A DNA stretch of 40,633 bases from the UHGV virus genome UHGV-0140992; one strand, 5' to 3'. The stretch comes from a virus. The notes below the pieces were generated by a model. It saw only the letters and a list, made by a program, of their open reading frames with translations, did no database searches and had not been told where the DNA came from. Below, piece after piece: positions 1 to 40,633 of the stretch. The translations under genes and the position numbers were made by a program. Position 1 is the stretch's first letter, and every line of letters starts with the position of its first letter.

Positions 1-1427
1 AAGCACCAGTCAACAATGCTGTGCTTCTGAAAAAGATGATTGGCAAGGATAGTAAGGTCGTTCCCCTGATAGCCGTCAACATCGAATGAGTAGGCCAGAT
101 CACGGACAACACTGCCTTTCTCCTGGACGAACAGAGCAATATTCGCCACGGCAATTGGTGGGACATTGCTCGAGCCATTTGATCCCTGAGAGCTGAATGC
201 AAATGATGATGGGGTAAGCACTTTGTTCTGGTCGCCAGTGATGACGTACTCACCTCCGGAAGTCAGCGCCACCAGCGAACCAACATCAATCAGGTGACGG
301 ATCTCATTAACCTGACGCCCGGCATAGGTGTAGATAATTCTGTCGTCATCCTGCGTAGGATTGCTTTTGCCAAAATCCTTATAATCCCCAGTACGGCTGG
401 CCCAGATAGTCTGAGGGAACGCAGTCGATGCGGCGAAGTAAAGACGCTGTTGATAATAAACAACAGTGCCAGGATAACCATTAACACTGTTCCAGGCATA
501 TTTAGCCCATTTATAGCTGGCATTATCCTCGCCAACGACCTGCGAAGGGATATAGGAAATCACCTCGGCAGTTGCAGTAGTGCCATTTGCAGCAGTGATA
601 CGGGCAATGCCAAAACCACTGTGCAGATACTCCCACTCAATGCCAGTATCATCATCACCGGATCCGCCCCAGCCATCCCATGATGTGCCTTCTGTATGCG
701 AAGGGCGCAAAGTACCTGTTTTGCCTGCTGTAACGGCGCGATAGTAGTTACTGTCTGCACGGCGAATATCGCCAATCGACGTACTCTTACTGGTTTCCCA
801 TACAGGTACTGAATCCACTGCAGGCTGTTCCAGATAGAACAATTTGCCTACCTGCTCCGCGCCAAAAATAGAGACGCTTGCCGTTAACGTAATTGTCCCG
901 GTGCTGGCGCTGGCATAAACCGTCACTGACTCATCAATATTGATATCTTCAAATGGCCCGTTCTTCGTTACCACATCAACCAGTTGCCAGTTGTCATGCG
1001 CATAGCGACGCAACTCTTTCGGCGGGTATGCCGGATGAACAAGCGTAAGCACGTCTGCGCTTTGCGTGAATTTAATTCGGAACAGATCGGCTTCAGTATA
1101 TGGCGTGGCAATTTCATAAATAACATTGCTGCTGTTCAGCACCAACGCACCATCTTTGATAACGCGCATGTACTGGTGTCCGAACTCCAGAGCATAGGTC
1201 TGAACCGTCGAGAACTGGAACGGGATCAGGCGGCATTTCCGATTTGGGTATTTGGCGGCACCGACAAAACGCGTACCAGGTCGATTCTCAACGCCGCCAT
1301 ACTGCCGCACGATAAAGTTATCGCACTTGCGCAATGCCACCTGGTACTTCGCCATGTCGATACGTCCGTACAACGACGGTCCAATCTCACCACCAGCAAA
1401 GCTGGGCTGGATCCAACTGATAGCCAT
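1..1427 (-). CDS. tail tubular protein B-like (T7 gp12-like), N-terminal ~475 codons; gene runs off the window start and resumes in frame at the window end
   Basis: ATG at 1427-1425 overlaps the upstream stop (ATGA); manual minus-strand translation 1427->3 is stop-free (MAISWIQPSFAGGEIGPSLYGRIDMAKYQ...); N-terminus resembles T7 gp12; follows a gp11-like gene. Confidence 0.55.
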   Translation of the reverse strand, partial: MAISWIQPSFAGGEIGPSLYGRIDMAKYQVALRKCDNFIVRQYGGVENRPGTRFVGAAKYPNRKCRLIPFQFSTVQTYALEFGHQYMRVIKDGALVLNSSNVIYEIATPYTEADLFRIKFTQSADVLTLVHPAYPPKELRRYAHDNWQLVDVVTKNGPFEDINIDESVTVYASASTGTITLTASVSIFGAEQVGKLFYLEQPAVDSVPVWETSKSTSIGDIRRADSNYYRAVTAGKTGTLRPSHTEGTSWDGWGGSGDDDTGIEWEYLHSGFGIARITAANGTTATAEVISYIPSQVVGEDNASYKWAKYAWNSVNGYPGTVVYYQQRLYFAASTAFPQTIWASRTGDYKDFGKSNPTQDDDRIIYTYAGRQVNEIRHLIDVGSLVALTSGGEYVITGDQNKVLTPSSFAFSSQGSNGSSNVPPIAVANIALFVQEKGSVVRDLAYSFDVDGYQGNDLTILANHLFQKHSIVDWC

Positions 1428-7133: not shown

Positions 7134-7223
7134 ATCAATGACTCCGTACGCAATTAAATTATTACCAATTTAACCACATATGATTTATTTATCGTAGGTA
7201 GTTGACATTTAACGCACAAATTA

Positions 7224-7238
7224 TTACCTTTCAGGTAA
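7224..7238. promoter_or_regulatory. TTACCTTTCAGGTAA, operator-type inverted repeat (TTACC-N5-GGTAA family)
   Basis: perfect 5-bp half-sites; same 15-mer recurs at 28399; TTGACA hexamer about 20 bp upstream. Confidence 0.45.
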
Positions 7239-7560: not shown

Positions 7561-7637
7561 GTGGCATTAGCTCAGTTGGACAGAGCAACCGCCTTCTAAG
7601 CGGTTGGTCGCAGGTTCGAATCCTGCATGCCACGCCA
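7561..7637 (+). tRNA. tRNA-Arg (anticodon TCT)
   Basis: cloverleaf folded by hand: acceptor GTGGCAT/ATGCCAC, D-arm GCTC..GAGC, anticodon stem ACCGC/GCGGT with loop CTTCTAA, T-arm GCAGG-TTCGAAT-CCTGC, discriminator G plus CCA; close to E. coli argU. Confidence 0.85.
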
Positions 7638-8174: not shown

Positions 8175-8186
8175 GTGACATGTCAC
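8175..8186. repeat. perfect palindrome GTGACATGTCAC, copy 1 of 3
   Basis: exact 12-mer shared with 10440 and 31612; intergenic. Confidence 0.6.
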
Positions 8187-8260: not shown

Positions 8261-9736
8261 TTAAGCATAGGGATCGTAATCTGTGATGGCCTTGCCTTGC
8301 TGGTTCTGCTGACCGGGAATTCGCAGACGCTTCGACACAGGGAACGCAAACGTCAGCAGTAGCGCATCGCCTTTACCAGGAGAACGCCCAAGTCGCTCTT
8401 TGATATCTTCCTTCGGTTCGATAACGATTTTACCGTCCACTCGAACTTTGTACTCTGCTGCCGACAGGTCGTCCGCTGTTTCCTGGTCATCCAGCATGCC
8501 GCCCAGCCTCAGCCATGTCTTGCATGAATTGAACATCTCCCCACGCTTGTTGAGCATCTGCGGGTCAGTAGACGCGCCACCGAACGGAACAAGTTGCCAT
8601 GTACGACCCCATCCGTCACCGATTGACTTCAGACCGGTTCCGTAACCGAAGTCGATGAACACCGCGTCAGCCTGATACTGGTCTTCAAAGTCAGCGATAC
8701 GCTTCGCCATAATCAGATCGTCGGTAGTCTTGTTGCCAGTCCACAGCACCTTACTGTGTAGCCCCTGCCGCAGGTATATCACCGCGTCATCAACGCCTGA
8801 ATATGCCGGGTCAACACCGATTATCACCGGAGCATGCGCCACCTGCGCAGCGGTTACCACCCGTTTCATTGCCTCATCAGTAAGACCGGTAGGGATAAAC
8901 TGCAATTCAGATGCATCAGGGAATATGCCGCGCACACGGATTTTAACGAAGTCGCTGTCTTCCCCGTAGTCATCAACCCATTTCTGCAACTGCTGTTTGT
9001 TAGTGCCTTCCACCGTTCGGCTGTCAATCTGCGCAGTTTTCCAGCGGTGTTTATATTTGCGGAAACATTCGCGGAAACGTCCGGTATTACGCGTCGGGTT
9101 TCCGAACGCCACCCAGATAATCTCAGTGTCTTCGTCCGTTAGTGCACCCTCGGCAACTTCCCACACCAGATCCGCAATGTTCGACGCTTCATCGAATACC
9201 ACGATGATGCGTTTGCGCTCGTTGTGTAGTCCGGCGAATGCCTCAGTGTTGTGCTCAGACCAGGGGATTGCGTCAGCTCGCCACCGCTTGTCGTGTCCAG
9301 GATCATTGCTGTACATCGCGGTAGCGGTACAGGTAAACCAGTCTTTCGTGATAGCAAGGTTCGACCACTTGATAATTTCCGGCCAGGTCTTCGTTCGTAG
9401 CTGGTTGTCGGTGTTGGCGGTCACCACGACCTTACAATCCTCGCAAGTGGACATGCCCCAGTTGATCAGCATTGAGATGAATGCGGATTTACCAATACCG
9501 TGACCCGAAGCACGTGCCAGCATAAGCGGCTGATAGCGCGTCTCTGGATTCTGCAGGTGATCACGTATCTCTCGGAACGCATCAGCCTGCCACTGACGTG
9601 GGCCGGTAGCATGTGCCAGTTCAGTCCCCTCTTCCCCCCACGGGAACGCATAGAGGGCATAGCCAAGCGGATCGTGAGTGAACCCTGCAATATCCTCGAT
9701 CAACTGCTCTTCAGGAGATAACGCTGTATCTGTCAC
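8261..9736 (-). CDS. terminase large subunit, 491 aa
   Basis: Walker-A-like GHGIGKS; size; GTG start overlapping the small-subunit stop. Confidence 0.85.
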   Translation of the reverse strand: MTDTALSPEEQLIEDIAGFTHDPLGYALYAFPWGEEGTELAHATGPRQWQADAFREIRDHLQNPETRYQPLMLARASGHGIGKSAFISMLINWGMSTCEDCKVVVTANTDNQLRTKTWPEIIKWSNLAITKDWFTCTATAMYSNDPGHDKRWRADAIPWSEHNTEAFAGLHNERKRIIVVFDEASNIADLVWEVAEGALTDEDTEIIWVAFGNPTRNTGRFRECFRKYKHRWKTAQIDSRTVEGTNKQQLQKWVDDYGEDSDFVKIRVRGIFPDASELQFIPTGLTDEAMKRVVTAAQVAHAPVIIGVDPAYSGVDDAVIYLRQGLHSKVLWTGNKTTDDLIMAKRIADFEDQYQADAVFIDFGYGTGLKSIGDGWGRTWQLVPFGGASTDPQMLNKRGEMFNSCKTWLRLGGMLDDQETADDLSAAEYKVRVDGKIVIEPKEDIKERLGRSPGKGDALLLTFAFPVSKRLRIPGQQNQQGKAITDYDPYA

Positions 9737-10329
9737 TGATTACCATCCTGACGTTCTTTGAGTCGCTTCCTGGCTGCTGCTATGCGATCAGCAATTGTCA
9801 CATTCACATTAACATCCAGACGTTCTTTGAACGCGTTGACATCAACATGCTTACCAATCAGCTCAAGGTTCTTCACCTTGTCAGGCCATTTAATTTTTTT
9901 GAGGATTGTCTCTATCGAATCCTCGTTCATGTTCATGATGGTCGATGACAGATCAAAGCCACTAAGCGTAGTGCGCCAGATTTTCGGCCACTCACGGATT
10001 GGTTTAAGGCTCCCATCGTCGTTGAGGATGTCGATCACGTCCATCTGGTCGATCTCCACCAGGCGCATGAGAACGTAATCAGCACTGACGCGCATTCGTT
10101 TGTTGCGCTCCTCCATCAACTCGGCAATCCGTTTTTGAATGCGTTCATCGCGCATCATGACACTGGCTTTAACTGCCGCTGTATTTGGGGAGAATCCTGC
10201 GTTAATCGCTGCCTGAGTCTGGTTTTCAGGCGTTTTGATGTATGACTGGCAATAAGCCTCCTGCATTGCTGTTAGTGGCTTAAATTGCGTTGATTTGCGT
10301 TTATAGGTTTTAGGTTCAGCAGGCATCAT
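9733..10329 (-). CDS. terminase small subunit (track ORF to 10407; likely start MMPAEPK near 10329)
   Basis: basic/helical protein immediately upstream of TerL; the N-terminal extension in the track is encoded by a DNA tandem repeat. Confidence 0.65.
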   Translation of the reverse strand: MMPAEPKTYKRKSTQFKPLTAMQEAYCQSYIKTPENQTQAAINAGFSPNTAAVKASVMMRDERIQKRIAELMEERNKRMRVSADYVLMRLVEIDQMDVIDILNDDGSLKPIREWPKIWRTTLSGFDLSSTIMNMNEDSIETILKKIKWPDKVKNLELIGKHVDVNAFKERLDVNVNVTIADRIAAARKRLKERQDGNQ

Positions 10330-10336
10330 AACCACC

Positions 10337-10365
10337 GTGGTAATAGTTACCGTTGTGGTAATAGT
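10337..10365. promoter_or_regulatory. tandem GTGGTAATAGT repeat containing operator-type site TTACCGTTGTGGTAA (10347..10361)
   Basis: two 11-bp direct repeats 18 bp apart just upstream of the terminase operon; perfect TTACC-N5-GGTAA. Confidence 0.45.
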
Positions 10366-10372
10366 ACCATGC

Positions 10373-10398
10373 AAAATAAAGCCGCCATAGTTGGCGGC
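10373..10398 (-). terminator. intrinsic terminator
   Basis: gccgcca-tag-ttggcggc hairpin with a T-run on the minus strand. Confidence 0.45.
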
Positions 10399-10439
10399 AG
10401 TATTCAAAACCCATCAAATTCATCATGCATAATCTACTC

Positions 10440-10451
10440 GTGACATGTCAC
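10440..10451. repeat. perfect palindrome GTGACATGTCAC, copy 2 of 3
   Basis: exact 12-mer; overlaps the stop of the 115-aa ORF, upstream of the terminase operon. Confidence 0.6.
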
Positions 10452-10795
10452 ACTATTAATTTCGTTTCATGCCAGCCTTTAGTCACCCAGCATTGCGAGT
10501 CACCATTACACGGGCATGAATTAACTGGAACTCTCTCGCCGCACTTACCGCAACATTTTCTGCTGATCGATTTTATACGCCCGCGCACGCGTGCATCATC
10601 CTGGCGGATCAGTAACGCGATGTACTCGGCCATTTCATAGGGATCGCGACCAGGGCGCCGGGCGGCGCAGTTCCGCGCCAGCATTTCCTGCTCCTGCTTA
10701 TCCAGCACCAGTTCAATTTTGCGCTCACCGGCGGCGGACTGCCGAGCGCGCTGCGCGGCTTTGCGTTCTGCGGGGGATTTAGCCACGAATCGCAC
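10448..10795 (-). CDS. hypothetical protein with C-terminal Cys cluster, 115 aa
   Basis: ORF track; CCGKCGERVPVNSCPC motif; last gene before the late operon. Confidence 0.45.
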   Translation of the reverse strand: MRFVAKSPAERKAAQRARQSAAGERKIELVLDKQEQEMLARNCAARRPGRDPYEMAEYIALLIRQDDARVRGRIKSISRKCCGKCGERVPVNSCPCNGDSQCWVTKGWHETKLIV

Positions 10796-12183: not shown

Positions 12184-12714
12184 TCACTCTCCTTTGATGC
12201 GAATGCCAGTGGTACTCATTCTCCTGATTTCCCAGAGCACACGAGGAACACCACCGTTTCCGACCGGATCGCGTTTACTCCGCAGGGCGACGCTTGATTC
12301 CGCCCAGCTTTTTCTTGGAGGAAGCTCTTTCACACGAACAAAACCAGCTGCGCGAAGAGATGCTCCTGATTCATCTGCCCGGGTGTACGTAATACAACGT
12401 TGATAACCCATAGCTTTTGCTGCCCGCCAGACAGCACCATAAAGCGCGCTGTTAGCGTTGCGTTCTCCTGTGGTACATGTGCGATTTACTTCAAGCGTTA
12501 ATCCATCGTCCAAATGTCGTGCAACAGGTCGACCGGCTGTCGCCACACCTATCAATTCTCCGGCATCATTTCTCAGACCAATGCTGAATTTATGCCCCAC
12601 CGGGGGTTTATTGTGTCGGTGATGTCTGGATATAAATGCCTTCGCAACACGAAGAGTAACCGGTGAAATCTGCACTCTCACTCTCCTTTGATACCAATGT
12701 TTACAGTCTGGCAA
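12184..12714 (-). CDS. hypothetical protein, 176 aa (possible acetyltransferase-like fold)
   Basis: ORF track; weak GNAT-like motif; C-terminus IRIKGE matches the neighbouring Ea22-like gene. Confidence 0.4.
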   Translation of the reverse strand: MPDCKHWYQRRVRVQISPVTLRVAKAFISRHHRHNKPPVGHKFSIGLRNDAGELIGVATAGRPVARHLDDGLTLEVNRTCTTGERNANSALYGAVWRAAKAMGYQRCITYTRADESGASLRAAGFVRVKELPPRKSWAESSVALRSKRDPVGNGGVPRVLWEIRRMSTTGIRIKGE

Positions 12715-13406
12715 GCTTCTCTGAGCACCCAGTCAATAGCGTCTTTCCATGCTCCGGTTTCGACTGACGGATTTTCACGCTTAACCTGTTCATAGAAGCG
12801 CACTGCTTTAACCAGTCCTTCCGGTACTACTGGCGATGGCTGTTTAGCTTCTAAATCAGCAATTCTGTCAACCACGGCATCGACAGCATCTGAAAAGCCG
12901 AACCAGTTACTCCACTCCGGTCTGTCCCCGGTTGCTGCAAAGTACATATCAGCTAAAGCAGACTCAGCATGGTCACGCTCATTGATGAGTTGCTCTTCGC
13001 TTTTCTCCAGTTCAGCAATACGATTACTTCCATCCGAGATAACACCTTCGTAATACTCACGCTGCTCGTTGAGTTTTGATTTTGTCTCCTCAAGCTCAAC
13101 ACGCAGCTTCCCTACCGTTAGCGCAATATCCTCGTTCTCCTGGTCGCGGCGTTTGATGTATTGCTGGTTTCTTTCCCGTTCATCCAGCAGTGCAAGCACG
13201 GTAGCCGGATTAGCCTTGGCAACAAAATCCCGGACTGGCTTACAATCAATCTCCGCAATGGGTTGATACGATGTGTAGCCATGCTGTCTTGTATAACTAC
13301 CGTGACGAATAACGAAAAAATCACCATTTATTTTTTTAGCCTGCCACTTATCTTCACCGGCTTTCTCTGCCGCTTCACGCAGTGCATGATAGTTAATTTT
13401 GTTCAC
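12678..13406 (-). CDS. Ea22-like protein, 242 aa
   Basis: coiled-coil-rich protein in the nin/ea region; family assigned by recall. Confidence 0.5.
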   Translation of the reverse strand: MNKINYHALREAAEKAGEDKWQAKKINGDFFVIRHGSYTRQHGYTSYQPIAEIDCKPVRDFVAKANPATVLALLDERERNQQYIKRRDQENEDIALTVGKLRVELEETKSKLNEQREYYEGVISDGSNRIAELEKSEEQLINERDHAESALADMYFAATGDRPEWSNWFGFSDAVDAVVDRIADLEAKQPSPVVPEGLVKAVRFYEQVKRENPSVETGAWKDAIDWVLREACQTVNIGIKGE

Positions 13407-16836: not shown

Positions 16837-17421
16837 ATGAAAAGTATCCAGGACGTCCGCAGGCAAAATCTCAACGACTTGATCGACCGTGAATTCAATG
16901 GTGTTCAGACGCGGATGGCAGAAAAACTTGGAACTCAGGCAAATCTGGTAAACCGCTGGGCTCTTGGCAAGAAGGTTATCGGCGACCAGGTTGCACGAAA
17001 AATTGAAGCTGCCGCCAATAAACCCCGTAACTGGCTTGATATTGATCGTTCGCTTTCTCAGGAGGGTTTTCAGCCTGTCGGCCCGAGCGATATAGGTCAG
17101 CTGGCGGCTCACAACCTGGAACGCTGGATGAGCGAAAGCCGCGACCTTTCAACACAGGGAAAACTTCACCGCGCATCCGGCGTCGCCCAGGTGACAATCA
17201 GCCGCCTGTTAAACAATGAGGTCAGCGTTTCCATTTCCACCCTGGAGAATGTTGCATCCGCATTCGGGCGTCACGGATATGAACTACTGATTCACCCGCA
17301 CGACCCTGCGACTATCAACTATGACCGCTCACGCTACGCATTGTTACCCGAAACCGAGAAAGCAAAGATCGAAAGTTACATTGAATTTGTCATCAACCAG
17401 AACGAAAAAAGCAAACAATAA
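16837..17421 (+). CDS. CI-like immunity repressor, 194 aa, two HTH-like segments, no S24 peptidase domain
   Basis: divergent from the Cro-like gene across the operators; HTH-type N-terminus; no Ala-Gly / GDSM / Lys autocleavage motifs seen. Confidence 0.7.
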   Translation: MKSIQDVRRQNLNDLIDREFNGVQTRMAEKLGTQANLVNRWALGKKVIGDQVARKIEAAANKPRNWLDIDRSLSQEGFQPVGPSDIGQLAAHNLERWMSESRDLSTQGKLHRASGVAQVTISRLLNNEVSVSISTLENVASAFGRHGYELLIHPHDPATINYDRSRYALLPETEKAKIESYIEFVINQNEKSKQ

Positions 17422-17478: not shown

Positions 17479-17555
17479 TTACCTTACGGGTAATTTTTTT
17501 AACTCATATCTATTGACACCAAACCAAATAAGCATAATTATTACCCCAACGGTAA
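17479..17555. promoter_or_regulatory. OL-like operators TTACCTTACGGGTAA (17479) and TTACCCCAACGGTAA (17541) around a TTGACA hexamer
   Basis: two perfect sites flanking TTGACA at 17513, upstream of the plus-strand operon. Confidence 0.55.
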
Positions 17556-28450: not shown

Positions 28451-28470
28451 TACTGTATAAATATACAGTT
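28451..28470. promoter_or_regulatory. LexA (SOS) box TACTGTATAAATATACAGTT
   Basis: 18 of 20 match to consensus TACTGTATATATATACAGTA, intact CTGT-N8-ACAG, overlaps a TATAAAT -10-like element about 20 bp before the downstream ATG. Confidence 0.65.
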
Positions 28471-28489
28471 ATTGCATGGAGAAGATAAG

Positions 28490-28747
28490 ATGCAGCAGTA
28501 TCACTATCCACTGGAAGACGGATTTACCGAAAGGATTCACACGCCGGGAGGCGTCAGGTCACTGGTGGAGGGATCGCACTTGATGAAATTACTCCGGGAT
28601 CTCGATAAGGATGGATTTAATGTCGATGGCCCACTTGCCGAACTGACTGCACTGATTAACTACGTCACCAGCTCACAGATGTCTATGCAGGATCTGCAAA
28701 CACATCTCGACTATTGTGCCGAACAATTACGAAAACAAACCCGGTAA
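28490..28747 (+). CDS. small antirepressor-like protein, 85 aa (track 28472 is TTG; ATG at 28490)
   Basis: GGAGAAG RBS; LexA box and operator upstream; about 45 percent identical by eye to the C-terminal domain of the Bro-N protein at 29896..30606. Confidence 0.55.
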   Translation: MQQYHYPLEDGFTERIHTPGGVRSLVEGSHLMKLLRDLDKDGFNVDGPLAELTALINYVTSSQMSMQDLQTHLDYCAEQLRKQTR

Positions 28748-29518: not shown

Positions 29519-29626
29519 TTACCTTAAAGGTAATATCTTGCTTTCAGGTGATCAAGCGTTAAACGCCACCAACCAAATACGGTTGATTTTGATATTTCTC
29601 CGCGTTTATCATTACCTTTGCGGTAA
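29519..29626. promoter_or_regulatory. operator-type sites TTACCTTAAAGGTAA (29519..29533) and TTACCTTTGCGGTAA (29612..29626)
   Basis: perfect half-sites between the divergent 242-aa gene and the Bro-N gene. Confidence 0.45.
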
Positions 29627-29639
29627 ATTTACATCGCAC

Positions 29640-29880
29640 TCCTCTTGTGCCATAGTAATCGGGCACTGGCAAAATCCAGTGCCGGGATTGGCGTCCCGGG
29701 TTACTAAGTGGCGCATACCACGCCAGACGTGGTTTTTTTATGCGTTAAGCACAGCTATATCCGAATTATGGTGGGCTGGGCAGGGGTCCGAAAGGACGCC
29801 GGTACCACTTAGGCCGGTACGCCAACCTTGTCCAGTTCACCACCAGTAATTGGCGTTGCGGTGGTGATTAAAATCACTAA
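29640..29880 (+). other. highly structured non-coding leader upstream of the Bro-N gene
   Basis: nested inverted repeats GGCACTGG-caaaat-CCAGTGCC and CCGGGA-ttggcg-TCCCGG; CCACG-ccaga-CGTGG followed by TTTTTTTA; direct repeat GCCGGTAC. Confidence 0.3.
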
Positions 29881-29895
29881 GTGGAGATAACCACC

Positions 29896-30606
29896 ATGGC
29901 TAATGCTCAAACTTCCATCTTCAAATTTGAATCTGTTAACCCTATCCGTTCCATCATTATCGATGGCCAACCATGGTTTGTAGCCCAAGACGTTTGTAGT
30001 GCGCTGCGTATCCAAAACGTCACCCAAGCACTTGAAAAACTGGATGATGATGAAAGGTCTATGTTCAACATAGGGCATGAACATCGTGCAATTTTTGACA
30101 GCCGAGTAAAAGAGATCAACATCATCTCCGAGTCAGGCCTCTACACACTGATCCTCCGCTGCCGCGACGCAGTGACACCAGGCACTATCCCCTACCGCTT
30201 TCGTAAATGGGTTACGGGTGAGGTTCTTCCTCAGATCCGCCGCACCGGAAGCTACATTAAAAACTCGCTCCCGCAGGAAGAACGCATAAAGATGGTTGCC
30301 GACCAGGTGGCCAACGCCACGGCGTCAGCAGTAATGCAGGCGATGAAGATAGAGAACAAAACCTACAGCGCCCCACTGAATCCCGGCTACCGCAGCCTGA
30401 TTCATTCGCCGTCTGGTGTTCTCGGCCTGACGGAGAACTCACTGCTGATGAATCTGCTGAACCAGTTACAGGACGACGGGCACGACGTATCGGGCGCGGC
30501 GGCGGAGCTGACCACCATGTTCTGCTACATCGTCGGTGTGAGCAAATGCCTGCGTGATATCCAGACCCACGCGGAATACATCAACGACAAGGCAGGGTTC
30601 TTCTGA
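29896..30606 (+). CDS. Bro-N domain antirepressor-like protein, 236 aa (ATG at 29896)
   Basis: N-terminal Bro-N-type motifs (FKFESVNPIRSIIIDGQPWFVAQDVCSAL); C-terminal domain paralogous to the 28490 gene. Confidence 0.65.
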   Translation: MANAQTSIFKFESVNPIRSIIIDGQPWFVAQDVCSALRIQNVTQALEKLDDDERSMFNIGHEHRAIFDSRVKEINIISESGLYTLILRCRDAVTPGTIPYRFRKWVTGEVLPQIRRTGSYIKNSLPQEERIKMVADQVANATASAVMQAMKIENKTYSAPLNPGYRSLIHSPSGVLGLTENSLLMNLLNQLQDDGHDVSGAAAELTTMFCYIVGVSKCLRDIQTHAEYINDKAGFF

Positions 30607-31611: not shown

Positions 31612-31623
31612 GTGACATGTCAC
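31612..31623. repeat. perfect palindrome GTGACATGTCAC, copy 3 of 3
   Basis: exact 12-mer between the small hydrophobic ORF stop and the hairpin. Confidence 0.6.
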
Positions 31624-39125: not shown

Positions 39126-39589
39126 TATTTTCTCTCCATGTGAAATCTGTGGAAATTAAGACCAAGAGCACCATAAGGCGCGGCTTCTTCAAGCCTGAAT
39201 CCAAGCCAGTGCAGCCATGCTTTGGCAACATGGTTTCGCTCGTCGACGTAGTTTTCCAGGCGCGGATAAACTGCCAGCATCTGCTGCAATACAGGGCGGC
39301 AGTGGCGAAGAAATGTCTTCTGATATTTTTCAATACGGCTGGTTCCTACCAGCCAGGGCGTACCATTGCCACCGATCATTGACGCCGGAGATACGCCAAA
39401 CATGGTTACCAGTTCTCCGTTCGCAAATCCTGACCAGGCCATAGTCGCAGTACGCAGACCAACACGCAGCGCATCTTCGGTAGTCATCAGTGATACCGCA
39501 TACAGTTCGTCAATATCAGCCTGACGAACATCCGGCAAAATCATCTGAAGATGCTCTTCGGTTGCGGGAATAATTTGAACATTGATCAT
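39125..39589 (-). CDS. virion protein, 154 aa (gp13-like position)
   Basis: position between tail tube B and internal virion proteins; stop/start overlaps. Confidence 0.4.
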   Translation of the reverse strand: MINVQIIPATEEHLQMILPDVRQADIDELYAVSLMTTEDALRVGLRTATMAWSGFANGELVTMFGVSPASMIGGNGTPWLVGTSRIEKYQKTFLRHCRPVLQQMLAVYPRLENYVDERNHVAKAWLHWLGFRLEEAAPYGALGLNFHRFHMERK

Positions 39590-40633
39590 CAGAACCCACC
39601 AACAGTAAGGCGAGGAATAACGGCAAGAACAGACAGCGGCAACGGATCAAGCTGACGGATTTTTACACGTCCGTTTTTGCCCCAGTTACTGTCCAGTTTC
39701 ACTTCTACTTTTCCGGTAGCATCATCAACAGGATCATCGTAGAACTCGAATTCACGCTGTGGATATTCGTACCATTTACCGCCGGGCGTAGTCGCCCAGA
39801 TGCCGCGACTGGCATTCACAACCAGAGTAACGGACGGGATCACCTGTTTTTTGTCCAGCAGCGTTTCCTGTCCGTTAATGTTGATATCCAGTGTTTCGAA
39901 TTCAGCAGTTATTGGCAGGCCGATGTGCACTACAGCCCCCGGTGATTCCAGCGTGACGGCACATCCGGAAACCACTTTCTGTGGTTCCACGTTCGCATCA
40001 GAGAGAATGTTTACGGTCTGGCCTTCAAGATGAGACAGGCCTCCAAATGTCCGGCGCGCCATCTGCCAGTTCGTGGTGGCCACATTCCTGAGGGATGGCG
40101 GGACGTTCCTGTTAGCACGAACCACTACAGCGGTATTGCTGGTTACAGAAATAATGTCGCAACGTAATTCTTTTGACACCTCATCGCCAGTATCAGGATC
40201 AGTTCCGGTATAAGGGAACTGTAGTTGCGCGCCGACATCACTACTGGTGAAGTACGCACCACCAGAAACACTGATTGTATATTCCGCGCGGTAATCCCAT
40301 TCGCCAGAACCACCAGTGATGATCATCGTTCTGTCAGACGTATTTCTTCCATCATAGCTAAGGCCAGAATCAACAAAGAAAGCATCTTCATCGCTGGTAA
40401 ATAAACGGCTGGACAGTCGCTCGATGTATCTCACTGTTTGCCCGTTAACGGTTCGGTTAACGACGAAATACACCGCATCTTCATTGCCTTCGCTGATACT
40501 GCATGTGCTTTCATATTTTCCGGTACTGGATTGTGGTGCCCATGCAAAAACCTGCTGATCACGCAAATAGGTCATCACCAGTAATTTACCGTCATCACGG
40601 ATGCAGAAGGCGCTGGAGTAAGGGACTATTGAG
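39589..40633 (-). CDS. tail tubular protein B-like, C-terminal part (continuation of the gene at 1..1427 across the window junction)
   Basis: frame of track ORF 39589..40578 stays open up to 40632 and joins the frame ending at position 1 through junction codon TTC; combined about 823 aa, comparable to T7 gp12 (794 aa). Confidence 0.55.
   Translation of the reverse strand, partial: SIVPYSSAFCIRDDGKLLVMTYLRDQQVFAWAPQSSTGKYESTCSISEGNEDAVYFVVNRTVNGQTVRYIERLSSRLFTSDEDAFFVDSGLSYDGRNTSDRTMIITGGSGEWDYRAEYTISVSGGAYFTSSDVGAQLQFPYTGTDPDTGDEVSKELRCDIISVTSNTAVVVRANRNVPPSLRNVATTNWQMARRTFGGLSHLEGQTVNILSDANVEPQKVVSGCAVTLESPGAVVHIGLPITAEFETLDININGQETLLDKKQVIPSVTLVVNASRGIWATTPGGKWYEYPQREFEFYDDPVDDATGKVEVKLDSNWGKNGRVKIRQLDPLPLSVLAVIPRLTVGGF

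What the first reader, a model, noticed from the sequence alone, without database searches (positions are those of the whole stretch)
10330..10451. Dense control region in front of the terminase operon
Within 120 bp: the 12-bp palindrome, a hairpin with U-run, and a tandem pair of GTGGTAATAGT repeats embedding a perfect operator-type site just before the likely TerS start. This is the best candidate late promoter/operator. The repeats also explain the odd N-terminal extension of the TerS ORF in the track.
Basis: seen in the sequence. Interest (0 to 1): 0.55.

Follow-up and report, generated by a model that had tools for sequence, protein, structure and literature searches.

The report
Repressor-controlled promoter before phage terminase genes
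The stretch in front of the terminase genes of this epsilon15-like temperate phage holds the terminator of the preceding operon and two adjacent prophage-repressor binding sites over a likely promoter, an arrangement already annotated in phage epsilon15; the 12-bp palindrome belongs instead to the upstream regulator gene and is the one unexplained part.

Summary
All the described features are real and non-random. They read on the minus strand, because terS and terL are minus-strand genes.

The window is a complete circular 40.6-kb Uetakevirus (epsilon15/phiV10-like) genome. The 120 bp is two independent modules, not one control region.

**Module 1: terS control.**
- An intrinsic terminator lies at 10398-10373.
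- A conserved extended -10 element, TGnTACTAT (10369-10361), is fused to two adjacent repressor operators.
- O1 (10361-10347) is a perfect TTACC-N5-GGTAA site.
- O2 (10343-10329) has one mismatch and covers the Shine-Dalgarno sequence.
- The true terS start is the ATG at 10326.
- The "tandem repeats" are these two operators.
- The same motif occurs 14 times in the genome (0.76 expected), always between genes, and clusters around a repressor homologous to SPC32H Rep (PDB 5D50).
- The epsilon15 GenBank record already annotates the homologous site as a repressor binding site and the hairpin as a terminator.

**Module 2: the palindrome.** GTGACATGTCAC (10451-10440) travels with the 3' end of the upstream gp49/N15-gp46-like gene in diverse phages and prophages, not with terS.

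The TerS N-terminal extension is an ORF-calling artefact.

The region itself is a new member of a known kind; the palindrome-gene cassette is the unexplained lead.

The parts
10448..10795 (-). Gene for a gp49-like (epsilon15 gp49 / N15 gp46-like) small protein, PHROG 536 'transcriptional regulator'. It is the last gene of the early-right operon. Homologues are 112 aa, so the real start is probably the GTG at 10786.
   Evidence: ORF list. PHROG 536, E 6e-54. No Pfam, NCBIfam or PDB match. The homologue consensus starts MxKSPAERK.
10440..10451 (.). 12-bp palindrome GTGACATGTCAC overlapping the TGA stop of the gp49-like gene. It is one of three exact copies in the genome; the others are at 8175-8186 and 31612-31623. 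It is a cis element of the gp49-like gene module, not of terS.
   Evidence: 3 copies against 0.03 expected. Same three syntenic positions in epsilon15 and PAS61. Stays with the gp49-like stop in 78 of 80 IMG/VR loci. Present at the stop in 36 of 58 prophage loci.
10404..10424 (-). Remnant of the 3' end of a gene that is intact in some relatives (GATGAATTTGATGGGTTTTGA = ...DEFDGF*). It is filler between the palindrome and the terminator, and it holds the -10 of the only two-hexamer promoter match.
   Evidence: Comparison of 63 distinct leaders. Type-B relatives have a full gene ending ...GATGAATTTGATGGACTTTGA at the same place.
10373..10398 (-). Intrinsic terminator: stem-loop 10398..10381 plus T-run 10380..10373. 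It ends the early-right operon.
   Evidence: Terminator scan. Fold of -13.8 kcal/mol. The homologous hairpin is annotated as a rho-independent terminator in epsilon15 at 39646-39672. Conserved in type A and B leaders, absent in type C.
10361..10369 (-). Predicted extended -10 promoter element TG-G-TACTAT (TG at 10369..10368, hexamer at 10366..10361). The predicted transcription start is near 10354, giving a leader of about 28 nt.
   Evidence: TGnTAnnAT is invariant in 8 divergent leaders and in Klebsiella phages. It is the only match in the window to TGNTANNATTACC-N5-GGTAA, with 0 expected. It ranks 180 of 81,194 positions with a simple sigma-70 matrix. Activity not tested.
10347..10361 (.). 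Operator O1, TTACC-ACAAC-GGTAA, a perfect core. It overlaps the last base of the -10 hexamer and the predicted start site.
   Evidence: Homologous to the epsilon15 'protein_bind repressor' at 12..27. Half-sites are invariant in 21 distinct close leaders and in all divergent ones.
10329..10343 (.). Operator O2, TTACC-ACGGT-GGTTA, with one mismatch. It covers the Shine-Dalgarno GGTGG (10336..10332) and ends 2 nt before the start codon.
   Evidence: The epsilon15 counterpart TTACT-TCGGT-GGTAA also has one mismatch, but in the other arm. O2 lies 20 bp instead of 18 bp from O1 in BUCT554-type leaders and is lost in Klebsiella phages.
10337..10365 (.). The 'tandem repeats' (10337-10347 and 10355-10365). 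Each is the left arm of an operator plus its flank: ACTATTACCAC on the minus strand.
   Evidence: and the sequence itself.
9733..10326 (-). terS (Terminase_2 family), starting at the second ATG of ATGATG. The ORF extension up to the TTG at 10407 is not translated.
   Evidence: Pfam PF03592, E 1e-29. In-frame stops upstream of the start in relatives. One natural variant, ATTATG, destroys the first ATG. epsilon15 and TL-2011b annotate the short form.
16837..17421 (+). Prophage repressor Rep, the presumed binder of O1 and O2.
   Evidence: Full-length match to SPC32H Rep, PDB 5D50_A, E 3.5e-42. Five of the 14 operator matches lie within about 150 bp of this gene.

Best explanation
The stretch holds two juxtaposed modules.

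**Module A (10398-10324, minus strand)** is the control region of a self-contained terS-terL transcription unit.
- The intrinsic terminator stops transcription coming from the early-right operon.
- Directly after it lies an extended -10 promoter, TGgTACTAT, that needs no -35 element.
- Its last base is the first base of operator O1. O2 follows 18 bp later and covers the ribosome-binding site.
- In a lysogen the prophage repressor occupies O1 and O2 and occludes the -10/+1 region, so no terminase is made. This repressor is a homologue of SPC32H Rep, which binds palindromic sites as a tetramer.
- On induction, the LexA-controlled antirepressor Ant (also encoded in the window) takes Rep off the DNA and the unit is transcribed.

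**Module B** is the palindrome GTGACATGTCAC. It is the cis site that accompanies the gp49/N15-gp46-like gene and most likely binds that protein. It is next to terS here only because no gene lies in between.

**Status of each step.** Shown: the sequence features, their non-randomness, their conservation pattern, the homologies and the synteny with annotated epsilon15 features. Inferred: Rep binding, promoter activity, the repression mechanism, and what binds the palindrome.
For: **Operator identity**
- TTACC-N5-GGTAA occurs 14 times against 0.76 expected.
- All matches lie outside the long ORFs.
- Five of the 14 flank the rep gene. One of them lies over the -10 of a textbook promoter, TTGACA-17-AATTAT.
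- epsilon15 has 15 such sites at syntenic places, and its record annotates seven as repressor sites, including the one before terS.

**Repressor system**
- Rep matches 5D50_A at E 3.5e-42, and Ant matches 5D50_E at E 5e-47.
- A LexA box, CTGTATAAATATACAG, lies at 28453.
- A review passage states that Rep binds palindromic sites as a tetramer.
- Overexpression of the repressor of phage ZX5, whose copy of this leader is 98.7% identical, cut holin and endolysin transcripts by more than 99.9%.

**Selection on the sites**
- Among 21 distinct close leaders, the seven variable positions between the terminator and the ATG fall in operator spacers, flanks, or the free positions of TGnTAnnAT.
- None falls in the 20 half-site positions. 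By my hypergeometric estimate this is about 0.008.

**Promoter**
- TGnTAnnAT fused to O1 is invariant across eight divergent leaders and in Klebsiella phages, including leaders with no terminator and with a different upstream gene.
- The same fusion of a -10 hexamer to the operator recurs at 17541, 14418, 29612 and 30679 (identical TACTATTACC). Each points at a downstream gene.
- terS-terL is bracketed by terminators on both sides, so it needs its own promoter or antitermination.

**Palindrome independence**.
Against: - No transcript or binding data exist for this phage.
- The primary epsilon15 and SPC32H papers could not be read, so the link between the motif and Rep rests on genomic distribution and a GenBank annotation.
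- The -10 hexamer TACTAT is only 4 of 6, there is no -35, and the element ranks only 180th in the window on a simple matrix.
- O1 and O2 are 18-20 bp apart, about 1.7-1.9 helical turns. Most other operator pairs are 62 bp apart, so cooperative binding by one tetramer is uncertain.
- O2 overlaps the Shine-Dalgarno sequence, so part of its conservation may be translational. It is absent in Klebsiella relatives.
- No heteroimmune relative was found, so co-variation of repressor and operator could not be tested.
Confidence: 0.62

Rival explanations
1. Roadblock only. There is no promoter between the terminator and terS. terS-terL is transcribed by read-through or antitermination from the early-right operon. 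Rep bound at O1 and O2 acts as an elongation block and translation-site occluder that backs up the terminator in lysogens.
For: - No two-hexamer sigma-70 promoter lies between 10373 and 10326.
- Several other operators abut start codons rather than obvious promoters: 14418, 22796 and 29519.
- Type-C relatives lack the terminator, so read-through from a LexA-controlled upstream gene would reach terS there.
Against: - The invariant TGnTAnnAT fused to O1 in all lineages is unexplained by this model.
- The same -10/operator fusion is used at clear promoters.
- No Q-, N- or RfaH-like factor was identified. The gp49-like protein matches no antiterminator family.
Confidence: 0.2
2. Integrated late switch. 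The palindrome is an activator or antiterminator site for the gp49-like protein and acts on terS expression together with the terminator, as in the lambda arrangement of Q, pR' and tR'. On this view all three features form one control region.
For: - A regulator gene, then a palindrome whose half GTGACA resembles a -35, then a terminator, then the late genes.
- Scan hit GTGACA-18-CATGAT. epsilon15 has GTGACA-17-TAAATT.
- The other two palindrome copies also sit 0-4 nt upstream of terminators.
Against: - The palindrome stays with the gp49-like gene when a gene is inserted before terS.
- In the window the putative -10 lies in a gene remnant.
- In epsilon15 the transcript would begin at the terminator stem.
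- At 31612 there is 1 nt between the palindrome and the terminator, so no promoter fits.
- Homologues in N15 and Chlobot have the palindrome directly before the next gene's Shine-Dalgarno sequence, with no terminator and no terS.
- N15 has a separate Q-like late activator.
Confidence: 0.1
3. Packaging signal. The direct repeats before terS are terminase small-subunit recognition sites (pac or cos-like), and the region is a genome end.
For: - Several GenBank records of relatives start within this region: phiV10, Tyrion, SPN1S and epsilon15.
- In lambda and SPP1 the recognition sites lie at the 5' side of the small-subunit gene (own knowledge).
Against: - Those record starts differ from one another (window positions 10447, about 10401, about 10398, and 10372). 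Other records start elsewhere or are circular.
- The window itself closes into a circle elsewhere.
- The repeat unit is the same motif found at 12 other intergenic places, including around the repressor gene.
Confidence: 0.03
4. The TTG-started 224-aa TerS, as annotated in phage PAS61, is real, and the repeats encode a TITT-rich N-terminal tail.
For: An open frame of 29 codons lies upstream of the ATG in the window. The PAS61 record annotates the long form.
Against: - In-frame stops lie at -6, -30 or -42 nt in relatives.
- A 2-nt length difference falls inside the 'extension'.
- The extension would start inside the terminator stem-loop with no Shine-Dalgarno sequence.
- The Pfam and PHROG matches begin within the short form.
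Confidence: 0.02

Closest known systems
Annotated control features of Salmonella phage epsilon15 (NC_004775.2: protein_bind 'repressor' 12..27; rho-independent terminator 39646..39672; terS 47..643)
   Same: - Homologous sequence and the same order: gp49 gene, palindrome, terminator, operator, terS.
- The same operator core, TTACC-N5-GGTAA.
- The same set of dispersed sites at syntenic positions.
   Different: - The record annotates one site before terS. It does not annotate the second site (30-44), the TGnTAnnAT element or the 12-bp palindrome.
- The window has a 41-nt spacer containing a gene remnant where epsilon15 has 22 nt.
- The ZX5 paper reports 42% homology between the repressor shared by ZX5 and phiV10 and the epsilon15 repressor. 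I did not measure the identity of the window's repressor to either. The operator halves are nevertheless the same.
Rep-Ant-LexA lytic switch of Salmonella phage SPC32H (PDB 5D50; Kim and Ryu 2013, Kim et al. 2016; papers recalled from memory and not readable here)
   Same: - The window encodes full-length homologues of Rep and Ant, with a LexA box in front of ant.
- Rep is described as a tetramer that binds palindromic sites, which fits paired operators.
   Different: I could not check which operators were tested experimentally, or whether a terS-proximal site was among them. The 18-bp O1-O2 spacing differs from the common 62-bp pairs.
Repressors with many dispersed operators: P1 C1 and mycobacteriophage L5 gp71 'stoperators' (own knowledge)
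   Same: A single prophage repressor has more than 10 sites spread over the genome, including in front of structural and late units, instead of control only at PL and PR.
   Different: The sites here are symmetric 15-17-bp palindromes, often paired and fused to -10 hexamers. P1 and L5 sites are asymmetric. L5 stoperators act on elongation and are orientation-dependent.
Plasmid R1 copB followed by the P-repA operator (own knowledge), as an analogue for the palindrome
   Same: A small regulator gene is followed immediately by a dyad-symmetric site at the junction with the next unit.
   Different: - There is no detectable homology. Only a weak, non-significant hit to 'LexA regulated protein' was found for one homologue.
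- No conserved promoter overlaps the palindrome.
- Extra copies sit next to terminators elsewhere in the genome.

Membership tests
Uetakevirus Rep operator | Palindromic core TTACC-N5-GGTAA (extended ATTACC-N5-GGTAAT) | tested here: met
   O1 is perfect and O2 has one mismatch. The extended left arm ATTACC is present in both.
Uetakevirus Rep operator | Over-represented, intergenic, and clustered around the repressor gene | tested here: met
   14 matches against 0.76 expected. All lie outside real genes. Five lie next to rep.
Uetakevirus Rep operator | Cognate repressor encoded by the same genome | tested here: met
   16837-17421 matches SPC32H Rep (5D50_A), E 3.5e-42, over its full length.
Uetakevirus Rep operator | Homologous position annotated as a repressor site in the type phage | tested here: met
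   epsilon15 protein_bind 12..27 lies directly before terS.
Uetakevirus Rep operator | Physical binding by Rep and repression in vivo | not testable with these tools
   Needs EMSA, footprinting and reporter assays.
Intrinsic (rho-independent) terminator | G+C-rich stem-loop followed by a U-run, downstream of a stop codon | tested here: met
   7-bp stem with 6 G-C pairs, a 4-nt loop and TTTATTTT; -13.8 kcal/mol. It lies 50 nt after the gp49-like stop.
Intrinsic (rho-independent) terminator | Compensatory changes that keep the stem in relatives | tested here: inconclusive
   The stem is simply conserved. The differences seen between relatives lie in the loop and at the base of the stem and are not compensatory.
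Extended -10 sigma-70 promoter | TG one base upstream of a TAnnnT hexamer; a -35 element is dispensable | tested here: met
   TGgTACTAT at 10369-10361. TGnTAnnAT is invariant in divergent leaders.
Extended -10 sigma-70 promoter | Mapped transcription start | not testable with these tools
   No transcript data are available.
Lambda-type Q antitermination module (Q gene, pR' with Q-binding site, tR') | Upstream protein belongs to a Q antiterminator family | tested here: not met
   The gp49-like protein has no Pfam or NCBIfam hit. N15 has both a gp46 homologue and a separate Q-like protein.
Lambda-type Q antitermination module (Q gene, pR' with Q-binding site, tR') | Conserved promoter between the regulator gene and the terminator | tested here: not met
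   The spacer is 22 nt in epsilon15, a gene remnant in the window, and a whole gene in other relatives.
pac/cos terminase recognition site | Repeats specific to the packaging region, with a genome end nearby | tested here: not met
   The same motif occurs at 12 other loci. The genome is circularly closed elsewhere, and relatives' records start at varied points.
Ribbon-helix-helix DNA-binding protein (for the gp49-like protein) | Strand-helix-helix fold | tested here: inconclusive
   The AlphaFold2 model has pLDDT 66 and pTM 0.41, with helices at 33-44 and 55-78. No Foldseek match is significant. The only ribbon-helix-helix protein listed is the AtaR antitoxin, at E 8.

The most novel reading that the evidence does not exclude
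GTGAC-N2-GTCAC is the cognate site of the uncharacterised gp49/N15-gp46-like protein family. Together they would form a widespread, undescribed cassette of a gene plus a site at its 3' end.

The protein, made from the last gene of an early operon, would bind at the operon's end, and at one or two other terminator-adjacent copies. There it would gate what RNA polymerase does: roadblock, enhanced termination or antitermination.

In Uetakeviruses it would thereby set the boundary between the early-right operon and the terminase unit, and insulate the late units.
Probability: 0.25. Interest if true: 0.65.

Novelty: new member of a known kind. Interest (0 to 1): 0.4.

Why it matters
**For this genome**
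- It fixes the terS start at 10326. At least one GenBank relative, PAS61, carries the over-extended call.
- It shows that terminase expression is placed under direct prophage-repressor control behind a terminator. This fits the need to keep a DNA-cutting enzyme off in lysogens.

**For the family**
- It supports a picture in which epsilon15-like phages run their late genes as several separately repressed units. The alternative would be one Q-type late operon.

**The wider lead**
- The palindrome is an exact 12-bp site tied to the stop codon of an uncharacterised small protein. It is found in epsilon15-like, N15-like and P2-like phages and in many Enterobacterales prophages, often next to terminators.
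- This gives a cheap, testable entry point to the function of a common phage gene of unknown role.

Tried and rejected
**Primary papers.** Neither the epsilon15 genome paper nor the 2013 SPC32H antirepressor paper is held in the library. The ZX5 paper has no operator mapping.

**Two-hexamer promoter scan.** The only hit, GTGACA-18-CATGAT, uses the palindrome as its -35 and a gene remnant as its -10. It is not conserved, so I rejected it.

**Function of the gp49-like protein.**
- Pfam, NCBIfam and PDB sequence searches found nothing.
- The AlphaFold2 model is of low confidence and Foldseek gave no significant match.

**Literature search.** The 12-mer returned no papers. A search on the operator halves found nothing relevant.

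**Co-variation test.** I looked for heteroimmune relatives, so as to test whether repressor and leader motif change together. Every Uetakevirus examined shares the same half-sites, and more distant TerS homologues belong to other phage types.

**Rfam.** No known RNA family lies in 10300-10460. The hits elsewhere are listed under things noticed in passing.

**Readings considered and rejected.** A cos/pac site, a coding N-terminal extension, and a uniform promoter-relative position for the palindrome. In BUCT554 the palindrome lies 6 nt from a -35; in N15 it lies 24 nt from one.

Full report
**Context**

The window is a complete, circularly closed 40,633-bp genome of an epsilon15/phiV10-like temperate podophage (genus Uetakevirus).
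- The 311-bp stretch around the finding (10250-10560) is 100% identical to Escherichia phage vB_EcoP_PAS61 and 97-99% identical to TL-2011b, ZX5 and phiV10.
- An 824-aa structural gene runs across the window ends without a stop.
- The terminase genes are on the minus strand: terL at 9736..8261 and terS at 10326..9733. All features of the finding must therefore be read on the minus strand.

**Observation**

Reading 5' to 3' on the minus strand:
- The gene for a 112-115-aa protein homologous to epsilon15 gp49 and N15 gp46 (PHROG 536) ends with TGA at 10450..10448.
- That stop lies inside the palindrome GTGACATGTCAC (10451..10440).
- A 41-nt spacer follows.
- Next is a stem-loop, GCCGCCAACTATGGCGGC (10398..10381), and TTTATTTT (10380..10373). 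The scan calls this a terminator, and it folds at -13.8 kcal/mol.
- Then comes GCATGGTACTATTACCACAACGGTAACTATTACCACGGTGGTTATGATG.
- The two 11-nt repeats are exact and 18 bp apart.
- TTACC-N5-GGTAA matches perfectly at 10361..10347 (O1) and with one mismatch at 10343..10329 (O2).
- The motif has 14 matches in the window against 0.76 expected.
- GTGAC-N2-GTCAC has three exact matches against 0.03 expected.

The repeats are more precisely two adjacent copies of one operator-type palindrome.

**What the TTACC-N5-GGTAA sites are**

- All 14 matches lie between genes.
- Five flank the gene at 16837-17421. Its product aligns over its full length with the repressor of Salmonella phage SPC32H (PDB 5D50_A, E 3.5e-42).
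- One of these five lies over the -10 of a near-consensus promoter, TTGACA-17-AATTAT, that points into the leftward early genes.
- The window also encodes the SPC32H-type antirepressor (5D50_E, E 5e-47), behind a LexA box at 28453-28468.
- A review passage states that Rep binds palindromic sites as a tetramer and is dismantled by tetrameric Ant.
- In epsilon15 the same core occurs 15 times at syntenic places. The GenBank record annotates seven as 'protein_bind: repressor', including 12..27 directly before terS, and annotates the homologous hairpin as a rho-independent terminator.

**Evidence that the sites before terS are under selection**

I collected 80 IMG/VR loci by TerS homology, which gave 63 distinct leaders.

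Among the 21 distinct close leaders, seven positions vary between the terminator and the ATG:
- 10372;
- 10367, the 'n' of TGn;
- 10364, where C to T gives TATTAT;
- 10355 and 10354, in the O1 spacer;
- 10345, between the operators;
- 10337, in the O2 spacer, where all four bases occur.

None of the 20 half-site positions varies. By my hypergeometric estimate the chance of this is about 0.008.

Across divergent lineages, O1 is invariant.

O2 is kept but carries its single mismatch in different arms:
- window: TTACC...GGTTA;
- epsilon15: TTACT...GGTAA.

O2 lies 20 bp rather than 18 bp from O1 in BUCT554-type leaders. It is lost in Klebsiella phages.

**A promoter**

The two-hexamer scan finds none between the terminator and terS.

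The alignment does show an invariant TGnTAnnAT whose last T is the first T of O1:

| Leader | Sequence |
|---|---|
| window | TGGTACTAT |
| epsilon15 | TGTTACTAT |
| L074 and BUCT554 | TGATAGTAT |
| L064 | TGTTAGTAT |
| L072 | TGTTACCAT |
| Klebsiella phages | TGGTATTAT |

This holds even where the terminator and the upstream gene differ. It is the signature of an extended -10 promoter.

The same fusion of a -10 hexamer to the operator occurs at four other sites, each oriented toward a downstream gene:
- the strong leftward promoter (AATTAT|TACC at 17541);
- 14418 (TTCAAT|TACC);
- 29612 (TATCAT|TACC);
- 30679 (TACTAT|TACC, the same 10-mer as before terS).

terS-terL is also closed off downstream by a hairpin flanked by A- and T-runs after terL. 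The unit therefore needs its own promoter or antitermination.

I infer a Rep-repressed extended -10 promoter with a start near 10354 and a leader of about 28 nt. O1 covers -8 to +8 and O2 covers the ribosome-binding site. This is inference; no transcript data are available.

In phage ZX5, whose copy of this leader is 98.7% identical, repressor overexpression reduced holin and endolysin transcripts by more than 99.9%. That is consistent with direct control of late units but not specific to terS.

**The TerS start**

- The ORF runs up to the TTG at 10407 only because this leader has no in-frame stop.
- Relatives have in-frame stops 6, 30 or 42 nt upstream of the conserved ATG.
- The 18 versus 20 bp operator spacing is a frameshifting length difference inside the 'extension'.
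- One natural variant reads ATTATG, which removes the first ATG.
- epsilon15 and TL-2011b annotate the short form. PAS61 annotates the long one.
- With GGTGG at 10336..10332, the spacing fits the ATG at 10326.

**The palindrome is a separate module**

In the IMG/VR loci there are three upstream arrangements:
- Type A: the gp49-like gene plus palindrome lies directly before the terminator, as in the window.
- Type B: an extra gene ending ...DEFDGL* is inserted before the terminator.
- Type C: a LexA-controlled umuD-like gene is inserted and there is no terminator.

In 78 of 80 loci the palindrome overlaps the stop of the gp49-like gene wherever that gene is, at -107 to -469 nt from terS. It does not follow terS.

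The window's 41-nt spacer contains GATGAATTTGATGGGTTTTGA. This is a remnant of the 3' end of the type-B gene. It also explains the weak promoter-like hit.

Homologues in unrelated phages carry GTGAC-N2-GTCAC at, or within about 7 nt after, their stop. These are Chlobot, Pectobacterium ZF40, N15 gp46, phiKO2 gp45, a P2-like Yersinia phage, a Vibrio phage and Pantoea AH07. Two others do not.

In species-representative bacterial genomes, 36 of 58 prophage loci (40-86% protein identity) have an exact copy within -3 to +5 nt of the stop. In 28 of them it overlaps the TGA.

The half-sites are constant while the central two bases vary. That is what a dimeric DNA-binding protein would produce.

**The other palindrome copies**

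- epsilon15, PAS61 and the window each carry two further exact copies at syntenic places: after terL and after the gp18-like gene.
- These sit 0-4 nt upstream of a terminator hairpin, in the direction of the transcript being ended.
- N15 has three copies. BUCT554 has four.
- In 15 of 37 palindrome-bearing prophage loci (the 36 above plus one copy further from the stop), a terminator-like hairpin begins within 0-56 nt of the palindrome.

**What the gp49-like protein is remains open**

- It has no Pfam, NCBIfam or PDB match.
- The AlphaFold2 model is of low confidence (pLDDT 66). It shows helices compatible with a ribbon-helix-helix core plus a Cys-rich tail.
- Foldseek found nothing significant.
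- No held paper contains the 12-mer.

I therefore treat the palindrome as the probable binding site of this protein, with an unresolved role at operon ends. I do not treat it as part of terS control.

**Rivals**

- A pure roadblock model with no local promoter remains possible (0.2). It fails to explain the invariant TGnTAnnAT.
- A lambda-Q-like integrated switch is unlikely. The spacer between the palindrome and the terminator is not conserved, and the protein matches no antiterminator family.
- A pac or cos reading is rejected. The motif is dispersed over the genome, and the records of relatives start at different points or are circular.

**Verdict**

- The features are real, and the operator, promoter and start-codon reading is largely right.
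- This part is a new member of a known and already annotated kind.
- The tandem second operator, the extended -10 fusion and, above all, the cassette of gp49-like gene plus palindrome are additions not found in the annotation or in the searchable literature.
- Interest is moderate.

Noticed in passing
window 8175-8186 and 31612-31623; epsilon15 (L004) 2142 and 19517; BUCT554 (L101) 5660 and 27924: The two other exact copies of GTGACATGTCAC each sit 0-4 nt upstream of an intrinsic terminator hairpin, in the direction of the unit being terminated. At 8175 that unit is the plus-strand tRNA/p50-like unit; at 31612 it is the end of the gp18-like gene.
   Followed up: partly
N15 (L098) 28550, 33237, 39269: N15 has three copies of GTGAC(TG/CA)GTCAC. 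One is at the stop of gene 46. One lies between gene 33 and the terminator in front of the antirepressor operon, 24 nt upstream of a TTGACG hexamer. One is inside repA.
   Followed up: partly
window 7561-7634 (+): A tRNA gene (Rfam 73 bits) lies between the portal-side operator at 7224 and the p50-like gene. It is apparently driven by a Rep-controlled plus-strand promoter, TTGACA-17-TACCTT, at 7202-7230.
   Followed up: no
window 29663-29739 and 29764-29847 (+), then 29881-30606 (+): Matches to the isrK and C4 antisense RNA families lie upstream of a BRO-N antirepressor-like gene, with a Rep operator fused to a -10 hexamer at 29607-29626. This looks like a P1/P7 immI-like second antirepressor module.
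   Followed up: no
window 28453-28468 and 28472-28747 (+): A LexA box, CTGTATAAATATACAG, lies directly before a homologue of the SPC32H antirepressor Ant (PDB 5D50_E, E 5e-47).
   Followed up: partly
window 14418/14480 and 17479/17541; epsilon15 32555/32617 and 35907/35969; PAS61 5730/5792 and 8835/8897; BUCT554 11580/11642 and 14644/14706: Rep operators often come in pairs exactly 62 bp apart (about 6 helical turns). This would suit a tetramer bridging two sites. The pair before terS (18-20 bp apart) is the exception.
   Followed up: no
window 1..1427 joined to 39589..40633 (-): An 824-aa structural gene runs across the window ends, so the window is a complete circular assembly of the phage genome. 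It is 813/824 identical to the PAS61 homologue.
   Followed up: yes
PAS61 (L005) 12387-13061: The GenBank record of the near-identical phage PAS61 annotates the 224-aa TTG-extended TerS. Comparative data show this is an over-call.
   Followed up: yes
L066 (IMG/VR contig 3300007747_000006): A natural deletion fuses codon 110 of the gp49-like gene to the terminator, removing the palindrome. The operators and terS remain intact.
   Followed up: no
BUCT554 (L091) 1614-1690; Klebsiella phages L092, L099 and L100: In type-C relatives the palindrome is followed 6 nt later by TTGACT and a LexA box over the -10 hexamer. These drive a umuD-like gene inserted before terS. UmuD-like genes also neighbour the gp49-like gene in Chlobot.
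   Followed up: no
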